A stretch of DNA of 64,000 bases from an uncultured bacterium (lineage in GTDB: Bacteria > CAZDME01 > JAYEMH01), in NCBI GenBank assembly GCA_964506075.1, contig CAZDKO010000001.1, positions 25,637 to 89,636 of the forward strand, in the 5' to 3' direction. The position numbers and the translations under genes were made by a program. Below, in pieces: positions 941-21,045 of this stretch (the first letter of the stretch is position 1; every line of letters starts with the position of its first letter). The notes under the pieces are model-generated. The model had not been told where the DNA came from, ran no database searches, and saw only the letters and a list, made by a program, of their open reading frames with translations.

Positions 941-3900
941 ATGATTAAAACGAGATTTAAAAATCAGGGCGGGGTCATAATCATTATGGCCCTGGTGGTT
1001 CTGGTTATTGCCTCGGTGCTGGCGGTAACCTTTGCTACCAGTATGCGCCTGGAGGAAAAAACGGCCGCTACTTTTAGAAAACACGGAAAAGTTTTTTATA
1101 TCGCCCAGGCGGGGTATGAATACGCCCTGGCTATTTTGCGAAAAGATAAAAATGAAGAATCAAGCCGTCCCTACGACGCTTTGAACGAGGAATGGCGGAC
1201 GTTATTTAACGGCAGCGGCGAAGAGGAAGAACCGGCGGTCAATCTGGACGGTATCAATTCCAACGGTATAAACAGCGATGGAAAAGATGCCCGCTGGATT
1301 TATTTACACCGTGACCCGGAAGATGATGAATCTCCGTTAATCGGCCGTTTTGCCGTTTTAATCGTAGATGAAGCCAGTAAACTGAGTCTCCACGCTTCCG
1401 GTAGCGGCCAGCAAAACCAGGGCTGGACGCCTTTTGAAAACGATTTAACCAATTTAAAAAATCCTAATACCGGCGCCAGTTTGTTTGATTCTTCCACGGC
1501 GCCAAATTTAATCAATTACCGCCAGGGTGATAAAACCGGCGGCGGGGTAAACACCAAATACCCGGGTGATAGCGGTGATGACGATAGTGATAACACCCCT
1601 CTGGAAAATGACGGTATTGATAATGACGGCGACGGCGTAATTGATGAGGCTTTTGAAGGAACGAACGAGCCGGATGAATACGTCTCCCGGATTCCCTACG
1701 GTACCGGTGATGAGCTTGATTTTGCCCTGAAGCTGGTTGATGAGTTAAGAATGGTGAGTGGCATCGGGGAAACGACGACGCGGATGTGTAAGAATTTTAC
1801 CACCGTTGATGCCGGGGCTCAAACGCGATACTGGGATAGCGCCACCTCCAGCTGGGAGAGTCAGGAAAATATTAACGCCCTGACTTCAGTTGATACTCTA
1901 TTTAACCTGATGACCGGGGCCGGGATTAGCAGTGAAAATGCGGCCCGCTGGACGGCGAACACAATTGACTATGGCGACCGGGACGGTGTCCCGACGGTAA
2001 TAGAGACCGGCGGCAAAAAATATCTCGGTGTCGAAGGACTCCAGATAAATGAGGTGATGAGCTGGGTTAATCATCGGGGGGATACTTATAAGGGTCCGAT
2101 AATCCTGGATAATTTTGTCGACACCCCGACCAACTGGAATGACCCGAGCAGTTTTAGTAATAATGGCAACTGGAATAATGCTCTTTGGACGGCTCAAGGA
2201 AACGTTGACGGAGGAGAAGATACTTGGACCTGGCCCTGGGATAACGGCACCTACGACATTTATATTTATAGAGATTCAAGTTTAAACGGCCGGGATTTTC
2301 ATTATAAATTTGAAGACGGTATCAGTCCGGGCGTGGACTTGGAAGGCGACACAGATTTTTATCTGAGTGACCGGTATCTGGTTCCCGGGGTTAAAATTTC
2401 TAACGGAGAAATAAGACTAACTTTAAGGGCCAGTGTCGGGGGGGAAACCTTTAGCTGGTTCCAGTGTCTAAGTTTAAATCCCACTAATCCTAATGATCCC
2501 AATACGGGAACAAGGAGAAATAGCTTTGCCGACCCTCCTCCTGTTGGTCCGGTGCAGGACCCACCGCCGGGAGATCCCTGGGATGACAGCACATGGGCGG
2601 CCAAAGGCTGGCAAACCGGAGGAAAAAGTACCTGGGTTTGGACTGTTTCTAACGGCACTTATGATGTTTATTTATATCAGAATATAGGTTGGCCGGGCAC
2701 CAATGACTATGATTATAGGTTTGAAGAAGGTGAAGCCGGAGATATTTCGGGGACGGCTACTTTCGGCTCCAGCGGCACTAATATTTATTATCACGTCGGT
2801 AACGTGACCGTCAGCGGTGGTCAGCTTACCTTGAAACTGACGGCTTGTTACACCTGGACGAGGAGCCGCTTTGAACAAATCGGTGTTGAAGGAGCTGAAT
2901 ACGTAGAATTGGTTAACCTTTCCTCCAGTCCCATCACCATTGATAAAAGTTGGGGGATAAATGTCGGCGGGAATATTATTCTGGATAATAACACGGCTAA
3001 GATTGATTCTTCCAGCCCCGGTACCACCTATAAATTCACCTGGTTTGAAGGAGACGCGGCTACTTTCACCATTCCCGGCTCAACGGCGCCAAATTACAGT
3101 TATTTTATTGCCGCCGACAGCCGCTACGCGATGGATTACCGCCACGCCTGGGCCGATGCTTATAAAGACGGCGTCTGGGGGTCGCCGGGGAATTTGGGTA
3201 ATGAACCGGGAGATTTAGGGGTAATCGGCGATTTAGAAATATCCAACACCGGGGGAGTAAATATTTCTCTGGTTAGAGAAGTAAACGGAGAAGAAATCGT
3301 GGTTGATTTTGTCCCCTGCACCACCACTGCTTCCGGATTCGGGACTTCGGCCTGGGATACGGTCGCACCCCAGGAAGATAAAAGTGTGGAAAGGAACAGC
3401 GCTTATAAAGACGATAGCTCCTGGGCTTTAACTACCGAAGGCTGGGGACGGGGAACACCCGGGGCTGCCAATACCGGTGGTGCCTCGGTTGCCGTCGCGG
3501 TTAAGAACCGGCCCTTTGCCTCGCCGGGATTTATGACCGAGGTTTATAAAGGTACGGGGGATTACTCCACCAATAAATTGATCACTTCGGATATCAAAGA
3601 TTTCGTGAGCGTTCTCACTACCGCTTATTACCGCCTGGAAGTGGAAAATACCACTTCACCTCCGGGCTGGTCAACCGATACGGGGATGGACGGTACCCCC
3701 CGTTATCTTTCGCCTACGGCCGGCAGTAACGCCACTTTAAGCTGGACCGGCCTTCATATCCCGGACGGGACTTATAATCTTTTTGTAGCCGGCGGCATCG
3801 GCGGAAAGTTCCAGTGTCCTTCGGGCACGGCCCGAGTAATGCGGCCCGACGGCATAGTTTATGCCGGTACCGCTGCCGTCAGTAGCGGGAGTTTAACCGT

Positions 3901-4405
3901 CGGTGTTTATGGCGACGGCACCAATCTTTATTCACTGGACTATATTTTACTGGTGCCTGAAAAAGAAAGCCCGCTGCTTATCGGTAAAATCAACATCAAT
4001 ACGGCCAGCGAGCAGGTTTTAAACGCCCTTCCTCCGGCTTTCTGGACCGGGTTTTATATTATTGATTATCGAAACGGCGCCGATAATAAAGACGGGACGA
4101 CGGACGATAATCCTTTTGGAAACATTGGAGAATATCTGTCCATTACCGGATTAAGCGAGGCGCAGTTAGCCGAAGCTTTCCAGAAACAGGCCAGTCTTAT
4201 CACCGTTCATTCCGACATTTTTGAAATTATTGTCGTCGGCCAGGAAATAGAGGATTTAACCAATACAGGTATCTTTGACGACCCGGAGGCCGAAGGGAGA
4301 ACCGGGGAAGCGGACCTGGTCACCGGGAAGGAGAAAATCAGGGCCATTGTTGACCGCTCCTATGACCCACCCAGAGTATTGTATTTCCGCCGGGAACCCG
4401 AGTAA
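941..4405 (+). CDS. Giant (1154 aa) GspK/PilX-like minor pseudopilin with about 800 aa of inserted repeat and Asp-rich modules
   Basis: The N-terminus NQGGVIIIMALVVLVIASVLAVTFATSMRLEEKTAATF..IAQAGYEYALAIL matches the GspK pseudopilin N-domain (no Glu5, conserved R-x-E..A..AG). The C-terminus INTASEQVLNALPP is the GspK helix-hairpin-helix signature. The interior has two copies of a roughly 35-aa module (TWTWPWDNGTYDIYIYRDSSLNGRDFHYKFEDG and TWVWTVSNGTYDVYLYQNIGWPGTNDYDYRFEEG) and Asp-rich loops (DNDGDGVIDE, GDSGDDDSDN). Confidence 0.55.
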   Translation: MIKTRFKNQGGVIIIMALVVLVIASVLAVTFATSMRLEEKTAATFRKHGKVFYIAQAGYEYALAILRKDKNEESSRPYDALNEEWRTLFNGSGEEEEPAVNLDGINSNGINSDGKDARWIYLHRDPEDDESPLIGRFAVLIVDEASKLSLHASGSGQQNQGWTPFENDLTNLKNPNTGASLFDSSTAPNLINYRQGDKTGGGVNTKYPGDSGDDDSDNTPLENDGIDNDGDGVIDEAFEGTNEPDEYVSRIPYGTGDELDFALKLVDELRMVSGIGETTTRMCKNFTTVDAGAQTRYWDSATSSWESQENINALTSVDTLFNLMTGAGISSENAARWTANTIDYGDRDGVPTVIETGGKKYLGVEGLQINEVMSWVNHRGDTYKGPIILDNFVDTPTNWNDPSSFSNNGNWNNALWTAQGNVDGGEDTWTWPWDNGTYDIYIYRDSSLNGRDFHYKFEDGISPGVDLEGDTDFYLSDRYLVPGVKISNGEIRLTLRASVGGETFSWFQCLSLNPTNPNDPNTGTRRNSFADPPPVGPVQDPPPGDPWDDSTWAAKGWQTGGKSTWVWTVSNGTYDVYLYQNIGWPGTNDYDYRFEEGEAGDISGTATFGSSGTNIYYHVGNVTVSGGQLTLKLTACYTWTRSRFEQIGVEGAEYVELVNLSSSPITIDKSWGINVGGNIILDNNTAKIDSSSPGTTYKFTWFEGDAATFTIPGSTAPNYSYFIAADSRYAMDYRHAWADAYKDGVWGSPGNLGNEPGDLGVIGDLEISNTGGVNISLVREVNGEEIVVDFVPCTTTASGFGTSAWDTVAPQEDKSVERNSAYKDDSSWALTTEGWGRGTPGAANTGGASVAVAVKNRPFASPGFMTEVYKGTGDYSTNKLITSDIKDFVSVLTTAYYRLEVENTTSPPGWSTDTGMDGTPRYLSPTAGSNATLSWTGLHIPDGTYNLFVAGGIGGKFQCPSGTARVMRPDGIVYAGTAAVSSGSLTVGVYGDGTNLYSLDYILLVPEKESPLLIGKININTASEQVLNALPPAFWTGFYIIDYRNGADNKDGTTDDNPFGNIGEYLSITGLSEAQLAEAFQKQASLITVHSDIFEIIVVGQEIEDLTNTGIFDDPEAEGRTGEADLVTGKEKIRAIVDRSYDPPRVLYFRREPE

Positions 4406-4513
4406 TTTTTAAATAGGGCTAGCTGTACCCCATTATTTAACCAATTATTGAGTTGGTATAGCTAGCCCTATTAAACTAATGGTAAAATATTAAAAATTTT
4501 GAAAGGAGAAAGA

Positions 4514-11990: not shown

Positions 11991-12860
11991 ATGCCGAAAG
12001 AAATATATCTGATTGATGGTAATTCTTATGCCTATAGAGCTTTTTACGCTCTGGGAAAACTTACCACTTCTCAAGGAAAGCCAATTGGAGCAGTTTATGG
12101 TTTTTATAACATGCTTTTCAGCTTAATCAGCGAAAAGAGACCGGAATACCTGTCTATTGTCTTTGACCATCCGTCGCCGACTTTCAGGCATAAGAAATTT
12201 GAGGAATATAAAATTCACCGCCGGCCAATGCCTGAAGACTTAAAAGGACAAATTGCTTTAATTAAAGATATTGCTGTAACCATGGATATCTCGGTAATGG
12301 AACAAGCCGGCTTTGAGGCCGATGATATTTTAGCTACCCTGGCAAAAAAATTCGAAAAAGATTTTATGATATTTGTTGTCACCGGGGATAAAGATATTTT
12401 ACAGCTGATTAATTCAAAAATAAAAGTTATTGACACCCATAAGGATAATCTGGTTTATGATGAGGAAAAGGTGAAAGAGCGATACGGCTTTAAGCCGGTC
12501 CAAATTGTGGATTTCATTGCTCTTGCCGGAGATGCTACCGACAATATTCCGGGAGTCCGGGGGATAGGCAGTAAAACAGCCGTGGAGCTCCTTCAGGAAT
12601 TTGGAACCCTTGAAAATATTTACCGGAATCTGGATAAAGTTAAAGGGGAAGCAAAACAAAAAATTCTCCGCGAAAATTATGACCAGGCTAATATCAGCCG
12701 GGAATTAGCTCTTTTAAATTGCCGGGTGCCCATGGAAGTTAACCCGGAGGATTTACGCTGGGTAAAATTTGACAGAGAAAAAATAAAAGCAATTTTTAGA
12801 GACCTGGAATTTAACCGTTTGATTAAACGGCTGGACGAATTACCTTTAGTTTGTACTTAA
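11991..12860 (+). CDS. polA: DNA polymerase I, 5'->3' exonuclease domain fragment (frame 0)
   Basis: LIDGNSYAYRAFYAL (5'-nuclease motif, compare E. coli LVDGSSYLYRAYHAF) and ..REKIKAIFRDLEFNRLIKRL (end of the nuclease domain). The frame terminates at 12858-12860 inside the interdomain linker. Confidence 0.8.
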   Translation: MPKEIYLIDGNSYAYRAFYALGKLTTSQGKPIGAVYGFYNMLFSLISEKRPEYLSIVFDHPSPTFRHKKFEEYKIHRRPMPEDLKGQIALIKDIAVTMDISVMEQAGFEADDILATLAKKFEKDFMIFVVTGDKDILQLINSKIKVIDTHKDNLVYDEEKVKERYGFKPVQIVDFIALAGDATDNIPGVRGIGSKTAVELLQEFGTLENIYRNLDKVKGEAKQKILRENYDQANISRELALLNCRVPMEVNPEDLRWVKFDREKIKAIFRDLEFNRLIKRLDELPLVCT

Positions 12861-14518
12861 CTGATTATTATCAATATAAATCCGGGGTTGTCTTGGTGGG
12901 GAAAAAAGAATTAAATGATTTTATCAAGGCTGTTACAATCGGAAAGAAAGTAGCCTTGGAAATCAAAGCTGAAGATAAAGAAAAAAATTTTTTTGATGCC
13001 GGCCAGGCCGTTACCATCTATCTGGCTGGTGTCAACGGAAACTCTTATTCCGTATCTTTAGATAAGAATTCTCCTGAAGACAATTTAAAGAATATCCTGA
13101 TTGACGAAACGATAGATAAATACGGGTTTGATTTAAAAAATCAATCTCTGATTCTTTGTAATTTTAACCTGGATTTAAAAGCCGTAAAATTTGACCTTCA
13201 GATTGCCGCTCATCTCCTTGATTTTAATCTAGAAAAAGTTTCTTTAGAGAAAGTATTTAGTGAAGCAGAAATTTTAGAAAAAAAATTAAAAAAGGAGCTT
13301 TTGATTTCTCTGTTTCAGGATGTGGAAATGCCTTTAATAGAAGTTTTAGCTTCTATGGAGAAAAAAGGCGTAAAACTCAAAAAGGAGATTTTAGAGCGTC
13401 TTTCCGAAGAGATGGAAGGTCAGAAAAAAACGTTAAGAGAGGAAATCTATAAAATAGCCGGTGAAGAATTTAATATTGATTCACCGAAACAACTCGGCCT
13501 CGTTTTATTCGGTAAATTGGGCTTACCGCCGGTAAAAAAGAAAAAAACAGGATTTTCCACAGATGGGGAAGTTCTTGAAGTTCTGGCAAAAATCCATATT
13601 CTCCCCAAGAAAATTTTGGAGTACCGTGAAATTTCCAAACTTAAATCAACGTATATTGATGTTTTACCCGAACTTATTAGTTCCCGAGACGGGCGTCTTC
13701 ATACCTGTTATAATCAGACGGTTACCGCTACCGGCCGTCTTTCAAGCAGTAATCCCAACCTGCAAAATATTCCCATCAGGAGTGATTGGGGTAAACGTTT
13801 ACGGGAGGCTTTTGTTTCTCCTGATAAGTATTTTCTGCTGGGAGCCGATTATTCGCAGATTGAACTACGCCTTTTAGCCCATTTCTGTAAAGATGCTTTG
13901 CTATGTGAATCTTTTAAGAATGACGAAGATATCCATACGCAGACCGCACAGGAAATTTTTGAAGTCAAAGAAGGCAATATAAACGAAGATTTAAGAAGGA
14001 TGGCTAAAACTATAAATTTTGGAATAATTTACGGGATGAGTGCTTACGGTTTATCCCGCAGTCTACAGATTGAAGTTAATCAGGCCCAGGATTTTATTGA
14101 ACGTTATTTTAAGAAATACCAGGGGGTTAAGCAGTATATTAACCGGGTAATAGAAGAAGCTAAAAACAAAGGTTACGTTACCACGATGTTCGGACGGAAA
14201 CGCTATATTCCCGAGATTAAAAGCTTTATCCGTTCAAAAAAAGAATTCGCCTATCGCATAGCCATTAATACGCCCATTCAGGGCACAGCAGCGGAAATTA
14301 TAAAATTGGCGATGATCGGGATATACAGGGAACTTAAAAATAATAGATTAAAGACAGAAATGATTCTTCAGGTTCATGACGAATTAATTCTGGAAGTTCA
14401 TAAAGATGAGATATCGTTAGTTAAAGAAATAGTAAAAAAAGAAATGGAAAGTGTAGTTAATATTTCAGTGCCGCTTAAGGTAAAGTTATCCCTGGGGAGG
14501 TCCTGGGCGGAAATTTAA
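12851..14518 (+). CDS. polA: DNA polymerase I, vestigial 3'-5' exonuclease-like domain plus polymerase domain fragment (shifted frame; the track start is TTG)
   Basis: Motif A DYSQIELRLLAH, motif B RRMAKTINFGIIYGMSAYGLS, motif C LQVHDELILEV, plus EEFNIDSPKQLGLVLF. There is no DTE proofreading motif. The frame is open from the stop at 12824-12826. Confidence 0.8.
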   Translation: MYLTDYYQYKSGVVLVGKKELNDFIKAVTIGKKVALEIKAEDKEKNFFDAGQAVTIYLAGVNGNSYSVSLDKNSPEDNLKNILIDETIDKYGFDLKNQSLILCNFNLDLKAVKFDLQIAAHLLDFNLEKVSLEKVFSEAEILEKKLKKELLISLFQDVEMPLIEVLASMEKKGVKLKKEILERLSEEMEGQKKTLREEIYKIAGEEFNIDSPKQLGLVLFGKLGLPPVKKKKTGFSTDGEVLEVLAKIHILPKKILEYREISKLKSTYIDVLPELISSRDGRLHTCYNQTVTATGRLSSSNPNLQNIPIRSDWGKRLREAFVSPDKYFLLGADYSQIELRLLAHFCKDALLCESFKNDEDIHTQTAQEIFEVKEGNINEDLRRMAKTINFGIIYGMSAYGLSRSLQIEVNQAQDFIERYFKKYQGVKQYINRVIEEAKNKGYVTTMFGRKRYIPEIKSFIRSKKEFAYRIAINTPIQGTAAEIIKLAMIGIYRELKNNRLKTEMILQVHDELILEVHKDEISLVKEIVKKEMESVVNISVPLKVKLSLGRSWAEI

Positions 14519-14801: not shown

Positions 14802-15431
14802 ATGTTAATCATCGGTTTAACCGGTAATATCGGTTCGGGAAAAAGCACCGTGGCCAAAATGTTTCATCGTTTAGGGGCAGCGGTAATTGACGTTGATAAG
14901 CTCGCTCATAAACTTCTTTCCCCGGGAAGTTTAGCATGGAAAGAGGTTGTCACTATTTTCGGAAGAAGAATTCTTAACGCCGACCAAAAAATTAACCGGC
15001 AGAGATTAGGAAGAATCGTCTTTGATAACCAGCAGAGGCTGAAAAAACTCAATAAGGTTATCCATCCGCATCTGGTTCATCAGGTAGAAAATGAGGTTAG
15101 CCGGCTAAAAAGAAATAAAAAGGAAATTATAATTATAGAAGCAGCTTTAGTTATAGAAATAGAGCCTTTATTTAAGATGATTGATTATCTGATTATGATT
15201 AAGATTGACAGAAAAAATCAGATTTCCCGACTTAAAAAAAATAAGAAGCATCTTACCAGAGATGAAATTGTAAAAAGAATTAAGTCTCAAATGCCTCAAC
15301 AGGAGAAAATTAAATTAGCCGATTTTGTTATCAATAATACGGGGAGTTTACAATCAACGCAAAAACAAGTCAAAAAAATTTGGGATGAGGATATTAAATT
15401 ATTAAGGAGGAAATCTTATGGATATTGTTGA
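14802..15431 (+). CDS. coaE: Dephospho-CoA kinase
   Basis: [21 protein letters not shown] contains a P-loop at the N-terminus. Length is 209 aa and the CoaE layout is typical. Confidence 0.85.
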
Positions 15432-16674
15432 TTTAAAAGGTAAAACAATCAATGAATTACATAAAATTGCCCAGGATTTAAATGTGACGGGATTAAGAGG
15501 AATGAAAAAAACCGACCTTATTTTTCGAATCCTCCAGGCAAAAACGGAAAAGAACGGTTTAACTTTTGGCGAGGGGGTGTTAGAAATTTTACCTGACGGT
15601 TTTGGTTTCCTCCGTTCTCCCAATTACAATTATTTACCCTGTCCCGATGATATCTATGTTTCTCCTTCCCAGATTAGACGTTTCAGTTTATTGACCGGGG
15701 ATACGGTTTCCGGGCAAATCAGGCCGCCCAAAGAAGGGGAACGGTATTTTGCTTTACTGAAAGTAGAAGCCGTAAATTTTGAAAATCCCGAAGGGATAAA
15801 AAACCGGATACTTTTTGACGATTTAACGCCTATCTATCCTCAGGAAAAGTTTATCCTGGAAACCAAGCCGGAAGAGATTTCTATGAGGATAATAGACCTT
15901 TTAGCGCCGATTGGTAAAGGTCAGCGGGGTCTAATTGTTTCCCCCCCCCGGGCCGGTAAGACTATCCTGCTTCAAAAAATTGCTAATTCTATTACCACCA
16001 ATACCCCGGAAGCGACCTTAATAGTTCTATTGATTGACGAGCGGCCAGAGGAAGTAACCGATATGCAGCATTCGGTAAAAGGAGAGGTAATCAGTTCTAC
16101 TTTTGACGAACCGGCTGAGCGTCACGTTCAGGTAGCGGAAATGGTTATTGAAAAAGCCAAGCGTTTAGTGGAACAAAAGAAAGATGTAATTATCCTTCTG
16201 GACAGCATTACCCGGTTAGGCCGGGCTTATAATGCCGTTGTCCCCCATAGCGGAAAGATTCTTTCCGGAGGTGTTGATTCCAATGCTTTACAGAAACCGA
16301 AGAGATTCTTCGGTGCGGCCAGAGCGATTGAAGGAGGAGGCAGTATCACCATTATCGCTACCGCTCTAATTGATACGGGAAGCCGTATGGATGAGGTAAT
16401 TTTTGAAGAGTTTAAAGGCACCGGCAATATGGAACTTCAGCTTGATAGAAAGTTAGTGGATAAAAGAGTTTTTCCGGCAATTGATATCAACCGTTCAGGA
16501 ACGCGCCGGGAAGAATTACTTTTAGATAAAAATGAACTCAATAAACTATGGGTGCTCCGCAAGGTTCTTAATTCCTTAAATCCTGTTGAGGCGATGGAAT
16601 TATTGGTTGAGAAGATTCAAAAAACTAAAACCAACAAAGAGTTTCTATCAATTATTAATAATCAGAAGGAGTAA
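15418..16674 (+). CDS. rho: Transcription termination factor Rho
   Basis: N-terminal domain ([19 protein letters not shown]), RNA-binding OB region, Walker [16 protein letters not shown]. Length is 418 aa. It overlaps coaE by 14 nt. Confidence 0.9.
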
Positions 16675-20968: not shown

Positions 20969-21045
20969 GGACGATTAGCTCAGCTGGATAGAGCACTGTC
21001 TTCACACGGCAGGGGTCGCTGGTTCGAGCCCAGCATCGTCCACCA
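20969..21045 (+). tRNA. tRNA-Val (anticodon CAC), CCA encoded
   Basis: Cloverleaf folded by hand. Acceptor GGACGAT/ATCGTCC; D arm GCTC-AGCTGGATA-GAGC; anticodon stem CTGTC/GGCAG with loop TTCACAC (CAC at positions 34-36); T arm GCTGG-TTCGAGC-CCAGC; discriminator A plus CCA. Confidence 0.85.

What the first reader, a model, noticed from the sequence alone, without database searches (positions are those of the whole stretch)
12820..12865. DNA polymerase I is interrupted by a frame change in the interdomain linker
The 5'-nuclease domain (frame 0) ends at TAA 12858-12860 just after ..LEFNRLIKRLDELPLVCT. The rest of Pol I (a vestigial 3'-5' exo-like domain plus motifs A, B and C) continues in a different frame, open from 12827. 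Restoring one nucleotide around 12840-12850 would give a continuous Pol I of about 844 aa (..RLDELP-FSLYLTDYYQYKSG..). No slippery heptamer or long homopolymer is visible at the site.
Basis: seen in the sequence. Interest (0 to 1): 0.55.

Follow-up and report, generated by a model that had tools for sequence, protein, structure and literature searches.

The report
Naturally split DNA polymerase I genes
The apparent frameshift in DNA polymerase I is a conserved split of the enzyme into two adjacent genes, a flap nuclease and a polymerase, found in every close relative examined, so it is neither a sequencing error nor a broken gene, and it is of modest interest.

Summary
A 289-aa 5'-nuclease ORF (11991-12860) stops at TAA 12858. 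The rest of Pol I (a vestigial 3'-5' exo-like domain plus the polymerase domain) runs in the -1 frame, open from 12827 to 14518.

The reading as an interrupted polA that needs one base restored is not supported.
- Two independent assemblies of other read sets have the identical junction.
- Seven further lineages (nuclease 64-72% identical, polymerase 63-69%) keep the order secretin, nuclease, polymerase, coaE, rho wherever the contig extends that far, with two separate genes.
- Their nuclease gene always stops right after the motif LEELP.
- Their spacers differ (about 6, 26, 93, 122 and 474 nt), their relative frames differ, and most polymerase genes have their own ATG, some with a purine-rich stretch upstream.
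- One relative has a whole unrelated gene between the two halves.
- All polymerase homologues at 63% identity or more are 525-555 aa without nuclease domains. Those at 51% or less are mostly ~890-aa fused Pol I.

The window has no slippery heptamer and no stimulatory RNA structure.

Best explanation: an old gene fission at the flexible linker, giving a co-transcribed stand-alone flap endonuclease and a Klenow/Bst-like, proofreading-dead polymerase. The polymerase start is unresolved: TTG 12851, or TTG 12893 / GTG 12896. Interest is low.

The parts
11991..12860 (+). Stand-alone 5'-3' exonuclease / flap endonuclease gene (289 aa), the former N-terminal domain of Pol I. It ends at TAA 12858-12860.
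   Evidence: Full-length Pfam matches to PF02739 and PF01367. The acidic residues D9, D59, E109, D111, D112, D133, D135, D181 and D184 are invariant across 12 homologues. The closest homologues are all 285-289 aa.
12846..12857 (+). A 12-nt in-frame insertion (codons L-V-C-T) at the end of the nuclease gene, relative to the sister lineages L003 and L088. The TAA that follows is positionally conserved.
   Evidence: MAFFT DNA alignment A3. C-termini of the relatives are ..LEELP*..LEELPIP*..LEELPIL* and ..LEELPQISP*.
12827..12892 (+). Stretch of uncertain status, in the -1 frame. It is either the 5' end of the polymerase gene (if TTG 12851 is used, giving a 10-nt overlap with the nuclease gene) or mostly a 32-35-nt intergenic spacer (if TTG 12893 / GTG 12896 is used).
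   Evidence: The frame is open from 12827. TTG 12851 has no SD (-3.0 kcal/mol, about the 44th percentile of random positions). TTG 12893 / GTG 12896 is preceded by GGGG (-5.7 kcal/mol, top 14%). The relatives' polymerase proteins are 525-542 aa, against 555 aa from TTG 12851 and 541 aa from TTG 12893. The L003/L088 start aligns to GTT 12887.
12851..14518 (+). Polymerase gene, drawn at its longest-ORF start: a vestigial 3'-5' exo-like domain plus a family A polymerase domain, Klenow/Bst-large-fragment-like, 541-555 aa.
   Evidence: PF22619 (weak) plus PF00476 at 1.4e-160. Best solved relative is the Bst Pol I large fragment, E 2e-131, with DYSQIELR, RRMAKTINFGIIYG and QVHDE aligned. Exo I, II and III catalytic residues are replaced or deleted.

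Best explanation

The two halves are now two adjacent, co-oriented and probably co-transcribed genes. The first encodes a stand-alone flap endonuclease (289 aa) with a complete set of conserved acidic residues. The second encodes a Klenow/Bst-large-fragment-like polymerase (about 541-555 aa) whose proofreading domain is catalytically dead.

The two proteins presumably do together, in trans, what Pol I does in cis: strand-displacement synthesis plus flap removal in Okazaki-fragment maturation and repair. This last step is inferred, not shown.

In this window the polymerase gene starts either at TTG 12851, with possible translational coupling through a 10-nt overlap, or at TTG 12893 / GTG 12896 after a 32-35-nt spacer. 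The -1 frame relation is an evolutionary leftover or a coincidence. It is not a lesion to be repaired and not a recoding signal.
For: 1. Reproducibility. Logan assemblies of SRR10178537 and SRR10178538 carry the same junction. They match the window at 99.88% and 100% identity with zero gaps, and both call a 289-aa gene followed by a second overlapping gene (555 aa in L001, cut at 139 aa by the contig end in L002).

2. Conservation of the split.
- The six full-length closest homologues of ORF1 (65-72% identity) are 285-289 aa, on contigs up to 38 kb.
- At the DNA level, L003, L088, L004-L006, L007, L089 and L090 show nuclease and polymerase as separate genes, and the loci whose contigs extend far enough keep the secretin, coaE and rho neighbours.
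- Their spacers are 26, 26, 93-111, 122, 474 and about 6 nt.
- Their relative frames are -1 (L003, L088, L007) or 0 with intervening stops (L004-L006, L089, L090).
- Starts are ATG in L004, L007 and L089, the last two preceded by a purine-rich AGAGAAA stretch, or TTG preceded by GAGGGAG in L003.

3. An inserted gene. L089 carries a full 144-aa PF05635 gene (E 2.5e-34) between the halves.

4. The polymerase side. All ORF2 homologues at 63% identity or more are 525-555 aa and lack PF02739, PF01367 and PF01612. Those at 51% or less are mostly ~885-900-aa fused Pol I. Of 80 GTDB species representatives at 48% identity or less, nearly all are fused, including other Omnitrophota.

5. Both halves look functional. 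The nuclease acidic residues are invariant and polymerase motifs A, B and C are invariant.

6. No recoding signals. There is no slippery heptamer. The RNA fold of 12840-12960 has z = 0.01. No terminator lies between the ORFs.

7. Precedent and plausibility. Discrete 5'-3' exonucleases without polymerase domains exist in phages and Mycoplasma, and the Pol I linker is a ~16-aa flexible tether (PMC3021548). A fission by frameshift plus a new start is documented for the exo/pol boundary of a phage PolA (PMC10201439).
Against: - No expression, proteomic or read-level data are available, so co-transcription, the actual start codon and the activity of each protein are all inferred.
- The subclade of the window, L003 and L088 still has the polymerase frame open back across the nuclease stop. 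A single-base change would therefore fuse them, and a low level of fused product cannot be excluded by sequence alone.
- TTG 12851 has no SD and TTG 12893 has only a weak one. About 37% of long ORFs in the window have an SD at or below -5.7 kcal/mol, so SD evidence is weakly informative.
- The two Logan assemblies may derive from the same study as the window. They exclude an assembler artefact but not a population-wide mutation. The conservation in relatives addresses that point.
Confidence: 0.9

Rival explanations
1. Sequencing or assembly consensus error: one base is missing in 12827-12857 and the real gene is an ordinary fused 844-aa polA.
For: The two frames overlap, and one added base would join them. 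Metagenome assemblies do contain indel errors. L011 looks like such a case.
Against: The junction is identical, with no gaps, in two assemblies made from other runs with another assembler. There is no homopolymer at the site. Seven diverged lineages from different studies and sources (JGI, ENA) all terminate the nuclease gene at the same point and restart the polymerase gene separately, with spacers up to 474 nt.
Confidence: 0.02
2. Recent inactivating frameshift: polA is decaying in this genome and is a pseudogene.
For: A frame break in a normally single gene is the classic signature of a pseudogene.
Against: Both halves are full-length, with all catalytic residues intact. The same split persists across lineages only 63-72% identical with no further disruptions. 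The one exception is an internal TAG in L090.
Confidence: 0.03
3. Programmed -1 ribosomal frameshifting in the 12827-12857 overlap makes a full-length Pol I in addition to the free nuclease.
For: The polymerase frame is -1 relative to the nuclease frame and open across the nuclease stop in the window, L003 and L088. The near-slippery sequence A CCU UUA lies at 12842-12848.
Against: There is no canonical X XXY YYZ heptamer. There is no downstream structure (z = 0.01). The overlap sequence is not conserved: the window has a 12-nt insertion there. In L004-L006, L007, L089 and L090, intervening stops or a whole gene make a fused product impossible, so the clade does not need a fused protein.
Confidence: 0.03

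Closest known systems
Canonical fused bacterial DNA polymerase I (E. coli PolA, Taq and Bst Pol I)
   Same: Same three modules in the same order, with the same catalytic motifs: the nuclease acidic cluster, and DYSQIELR, RxxxKxxNFGxxYG and QVHDE. The polymerase half is about 50% identical to fused Pol I of Omnitrophota and Desulfobacterota. The vestigial exo domain resembles that of Bst and Taq.
   Different: It is encoded as two genes with a stop after the nuclease domain. The total length (about 830-844 aa) is shorter than the ~890 aa of the nearest fused relatives, because about 39 aa including Exo III are deleted.
Stand-alone bacterial and phage 5'-3' exonucleases / FENs (T5 D15, T7 gp6, the Mycoplasma 5'-3' exonuclease, E. 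coli ExoIX/Xni, B. subtilis YpcP/FenA)
   Same: A discrete ~290-aa protein with the PF02739 + PF01367 architecture and no polymerase domain. PMC3021548 and PMC11260460 note that such independent units exist.
   Different: In those cases the nuclease is a paralogue or is unlinked to the polymerase. Here it is the orthologue of the Pol I N-terminal domain and still sits immediately upstream of its former C-terminal part, with synteny conserved.
Aquificae arrangement (Pol I-type polymerase lacking the 5' nuclease domain, plus a separate 5'-3' exonuclease)
   Same: The organism has a free FEN and a PolA without a nuclease domain. A Persephonella stand-alone 5'-3' exonuclease appears among the ORF1 hits (P0066).
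   Different: In Aquificae the canonical Pol I was lost and replaced by a laterally transferred 'Hot Spring 1' PolA with an active 3'-5' exo (PMC10201439). Here the polymerase half is a canonical Pol I that was split in situ.
Exo/pol gene fission in S-SBP1-like T7-type cyanophage PolA (Czernecki et al. 2023, PMC10201439)
   Same: A family A polymerase is split into two adjacent genes. The origin there was attributed to a frameshift that created a stop, plus a nearby new start codon. Programmed frameshifting was dismissed by comparison with relatives, the same logic as used here.
   Different: That split lies between the 3'-5' exo and polymerase domains of a phage replicase. [quoted passage not shown]

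Membership tests
Bacterial DNA polymerase I (family A), polymerase part | PF00476 domain with motif A (DYSQIELR), motif B (RxxxKxxNFGxxYG) and motif C (QVHDE) | tested here: met
   PF00476 at E 1.4e-160 over profile positions 2-381 of 381. All three motifs align to Bst Pol I and are invariant in A2.
Bacterial DNA polymerase I (family A), canonical architecture | 5' nuclease, 3'-5' exo(-like) and polymerase domains on a single polypeptide | tested here: not met
   There is a stop at 12858 and a frame change. The same two-gene state is found in seven related lineages.
Proofreading-proficient Pol I (Klenow type) | Exo I DxE, Exo II NxxxD and Exo III YxxxD carboxylates | tested here: not met
   In A2, the D-x-E of fused relatives (LDIETT) corresponds to E-I-K in the window. 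QNIKYD corresponds to FDLKNQ. The YSCEDSD segment is deleted in the whole split clade. No PF01612 hit reaches threshold.
5'-3' exonuclease / bacterial FEN (PF02739 + PF01367) | N-terminal PIN-like domain and H3TH domain with the conserved metal-binding acidic cluster | tested here: met
   PF02739 at 1.8e-58 and PF01367 at 4.7e-33, both full length. D9, D59, E109, D111, D112, D133, D135, D181 and D184 are invariant. Their correspondence to E. coli Pol I D13, D63, E113, D115, D116, D138, D140, D185 and D188 is from memory.
Programmed -1 ribosomal frameshift site (dnaX-like) | Slippery X XXY YYZ heptamer in the zero frame | tested here: not met
   No such heptamer lies in 12827-12857. The nearest is A CCU UUA (direct reading).
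Programmed -1 ribosomal frameshift site (dnaX-like) | Downstream stimulatory hairpin or pseudoknot, or an upstream SD-like element | tested here: not met
   The fold of 12840-12960 has an MFE of -21.1 kcal/mol against a shuffle mean of -21.1, z = 0.01.
Programmed -1 ribosomal frameshift site (dnaX-like) | Conservation of the frame relation and the shift site among relatives | tested here: not met
   Relative frames are 2, 2, 0, 2, 0 and 0, spacers range from about 6 to 474 nt, and intervening stops are present.
Gene fission (split orthologue of a fused gene) | The two parts are adjacent, collinear with the fused orthologue, each under its own stop or start, and the state is inherited across a clade whose outgroups are fused | tested here: met
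   Searches show adjacency, collinearity and separate stops and starts. Searches show that the outgroups are mostly fused ~890-aa proteins.

The most novel reading that the evidence does not exclude
In the subclade formed by the window, L003 and L088, the polymerase frame stays open across the nuclease stop. A small fraction of ribosomes might shift -1, or terminate and reinitiate, at the 12842-12860 overlap. The cell would then make free FEN, free polymerase and a little full-length Pol I from one locus. That would be a tunable ratio of tethered to untethered nuclease.
Probability: 0.03. Interest if true: 0.5.

Novelty: new member of a known kind. Interest (0 to 1): 0.18.

Why it matters
For annotation: this locus and its relatives should be annotated as two genes, a 5'-3' exonuclease/FEN and a polymerase lacking the 5' nuclease. 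They should not be marked as a frameshifted or pseudogenised polA, and the sequence should not be 'repaired'.

For biology: this is a clean natural experiment. Covalent tethering of the flap nuclease to the Pol I polymerase is dispensable over long evolutionary time in a free-living or episymbiotic lineage. The split also coincides with loss of proofreading. That may interest people who model polymerase-to-nuclease hand-off in Okazaki-fragment processing, and enzyme engineers looking for natural Klenow/Bst-like large fragments. It does not open a new question.

Tried and rejected
- An exact look-up of the 555-aa ORF2 found nothing on record. This is explained by four clustered substitutions in the Logan copy.
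- The scan of GTDB species representatives found neither the window's genome nor any member of the split clade. The best hit was 48% identical. It therefore served only as a fused outgroup panel.
- The cluster look-up returned no names or accessions for P0001, P0002, P0004 or P0006. Taxonomy therefore rests only on the nearest named hits, Candidatus Omnitrophota and Desulfobacterota MAGs at about 50% identity.
- The SD energy analysis could not settle the start codon, because only about 37% of long ORFs in the window have a clear SD.
- My first impression was that TTG 12893 is the positional orthologue of the L003/L088 TTG start. The alignment did not bear this out: it places that start opposite GTT 12887.
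- Promoter and terminator scans found nothing above shuffled expectation.
- Rfam found only one tRNA in the whole window, at 20969-21042.
- I found no paper describing an in-situ fission between FEN and the Klenow-like part of a cellular Pol I. The library is incomplete, so this is not proof of absence.

Full report
**Observation**

ORF1 (11991-12860, 289 aa) ends ..LEFNRLIKRLDELPLVCT followed by TAA at 12858-12860. The frame one base back (-1) is open from 12827, after TAA 12824, and runs to 14518. The longest-ORF start there is TTG 12851, which overlaps ORF1 by 10 nt.

ORF1 is a complete 5'-3' exonuclease/FEN module: PF02739 at 1.8e-58 and PF01367 at 4.7e-33. ORF2 carries a weak DNA_polI_exo1 hit (1.9e-11) and a full-length family A polymerase domain (1.4e-160). 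The overlap contains no homopolymer and no X XXY YYZ heptamer.

**Is it an error?**

An exact look-up of ORF1 found two contigs, assembled independently by Logan from runs SRR10178537 and SRR10178538. They align to the window over 3.4 and 3.0 kb at 99.88% and 100% identity with zero gaps. Both show the 289-aa gene followed by an overlapping second gene (555 aa in L001, cut at 139 aa by the contig end in L002). The only four differences lie at 14341-14347, far from the junction. An assembler-specific consensus error is therefore excluded.

**Relatives**

The six full-length closest homologues of ORF1 in a 5.8-billion-protein collection (65-72% identity) are 285-289 aa long. I fetched the DNA around six of the seven closest.

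Wherever the contig extends far enough, the neighbourhood is the same as in the window: pilus secretin, nuclease, polymerase, coaE, rho. In every case the nuclease and polymerase are separate genes. The details differ in ways that a shared sequencing artefact or a shared recoding signal could not produce.

| Locus | Spacer between the genes | Relative frame | Polymerase start |
|---|---|---|---|
| L003, L088 | 26 nt | -1 | TTG; preceded by GAGGGAG in L003 |
| L004-L006 | 93-111 nt | same frame, two in-frame stops | ATG |
| L007 | 122 nt, with a 7-nt tandem repeat | -1, with intervening stops | ATG |
| L089 | 474 nt | same frame | ATG |
| L090 | about 6 nt | same frame, a single TAA | GTG |

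The 474-nt spacer of L089 holds a complete 144-aa gene of family PF05635 (E 2.5e-34). In all lineages the nuclease reading frame ends within zero to four codons of the motif RL(E/D)ELP.

The polymerase side gives the same picture. Every homologue of ORF2 at 63% identity or more is 525-555 aa and lacks the nuclease domains and PF01612. Those at 51% or less are mostly ~885-900-aa fused Pol I with all five Pfam domains. Among 80 GTDB species representatives at 48% identity or less, including other Omnitrophota, nearly all are fused.

The split is thus a derived, inherited character of one clade. That clade is probably within or near Omnitrophota, judging only from the nearest named hits.

**State of the two halves**

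The nuclease keeps an invariant cluster of acidic residues: D9, D59, E109, D111, D112, D133, D135, D181 and D184. The polymerase keeps motif A (DYSQIELR), motif B (RRMAKTINFGIIYG) and motif C (QVHDE). Its best solved relative is the Bst Pol I large fragment, at E 2e-131.

I aligned the split clade against fused Omnitrophota Pol I to check the proofreading site.
- Exo I: the D-x-E of the fused proteins is E-I-K in the window.
- Exo II: N..YD is D..NQ.
- Exo III: a segment of about 39 aa that includes YxxxD is deleted.

**Recoding?**

The overlap has no slippery heptamer. The RNA downstream folds no better than shuffled sequence (z = 0.01). No terminator lies between the ORFs, and promoter-like matches are not above expectation.

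The window carries a 12-nt in-frame insertion (codons LVCT) just before the positionally conserved TAA, relative to L003 and L088. The overlap sequence itself is therefore not conserved. In four of the seven related lineages a fused product is impossible. Programmed frameshifting is very unlikely.

**Start of the polymerase gene**

This point is not settled.
- TTG 12851 has no Shine-Dalgarno pairing (-3.0 kcal/mol, no better than 44% of random positions).
- TTG 12893 / GTG 12896 follows GGGG (-5.7 kcal/mol, top 14%).
- Only about 37% of long ORFs in the window have an SD that good. ORF1 itself has none.
- A start at 12893 gives 541 aa, within the 525-542 aa of the relatives. TTG 12851 gives 555 aa, longer than any relative.
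- In an ungapped alignment, the TTG start of L003/L088 falls on GTT 12887 of the window.

I slightly favour TTG 12893 / GTG 12896, which would leave a 32-35-nt spacer. Coupling through the 10-nt overlap at TTG 12851 remains possible. Either way there are two genes.

**Mechanism and comparison**

The best-supported explanation is an old gene fission in the flexible interdomain linker. The linker is a tether of about 16 aa in Pol I (PMC3021548). The fission left a stand-alone FEN and a Klenow/Bst-like, proofreading-deficient polymerase, expressed from adjacent genes and presumably cooperating in trans.

Free 5'-3' exonucleases without polymerase domains are known from phages and Mycoplasma (PMC3021548, PMC11260460). 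Aquificae have a PolA without a nuclease domain, but there the canonical Pol I was replaced by a foreign PolA (PMC10201439).

The nearest documented analogue in mechanism is the exo/pol fission of a T7-like cyanophage PolA. Its origin was attributed to a frameshift plus a new start codon, and relatives likewise ruled out programmed frameshifting (PMC10201439). A single-base frameshift origin is plausible here too, because the window, L003 and L088 retain a -1 relation with an open overlap. This is inference only.

**Verdict**

The interpretation as an interrupted or erroneous polA is not supported. This is a further example of a known kind of event: a domain-boundary gene fission that produces a free FEN and a nuclease-less Pol I. 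It is useful for correct annotation and is a modest evolutionary curiosity, but it is not surprising to a specialist.

Noticed in passing
L089:3049-3483: A complete 144-aa gene of the 23S rRNA-intervening-sequence protein family (PF05635, E 2.5e-34; weak bAvd-like hit) is inserted between the nuclease gene and the polymerase gene in this relative.
   Followed up: partly
L007:2562-2612: The spacer between the nuclease and polymerase genes contains a 7-nt tandem repeat: CCATAGA four times, then CTATAGA twice.
   Followed up: no
L090:2927-3031: The nuclease gene has an in-frame TAG where all relatives have Trp (..DLR*GNFDKEK..). The nuclease and polymerase are in the same frame here, separated by a single TAA (..LEELPLS*KYVRVVL..). 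This could be a nonsense mutation, a sequencing error or a decaying copy.
   Followed up: partly
L011:3501-6147: In a deltaproteobacterial MAG (47% identity), polA is broken inside the exo region: a 407-aa ORF, then the polymerase domain in another frame. Its fused relatives suggest a genuine frameshift or assembly error, in contrast to the window.
   Followed up: no
window:14341-14347: The only differences between the window and the Logan contig L001 are four clustered substitutions, giving N497K and R499G in the polymerase gene. This is local microdiversity or a local assembly variant.
   Followed up: partly
window:14519-14801: A 283-nt non-coding gap lies between the polymerase stop and coaE. 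The gap is variable in relatives: 1 nt in L004, 476 nt in L003. There is no Rfam family hit.
   Followed up: no
L061, L067, L079 (match at 3501-4437): Patescibacteria (Saccharibacteria and Wildermuthbacteria) genomes carry stand-alone ~300-aa 5'-3' exonuclease genes with no polymerase domain within 3.5 kb. This is an unlinked arrangement, unlike the adjacent split seen here.
   Followed up: no
window:15402-15431: coaE (14802-15431) and rho (15418-16674) overlap by 14 nt. The same coaE/rho overlap is seen in L004-L006, so gene overlaps are common in this operon.
   Followed up: no
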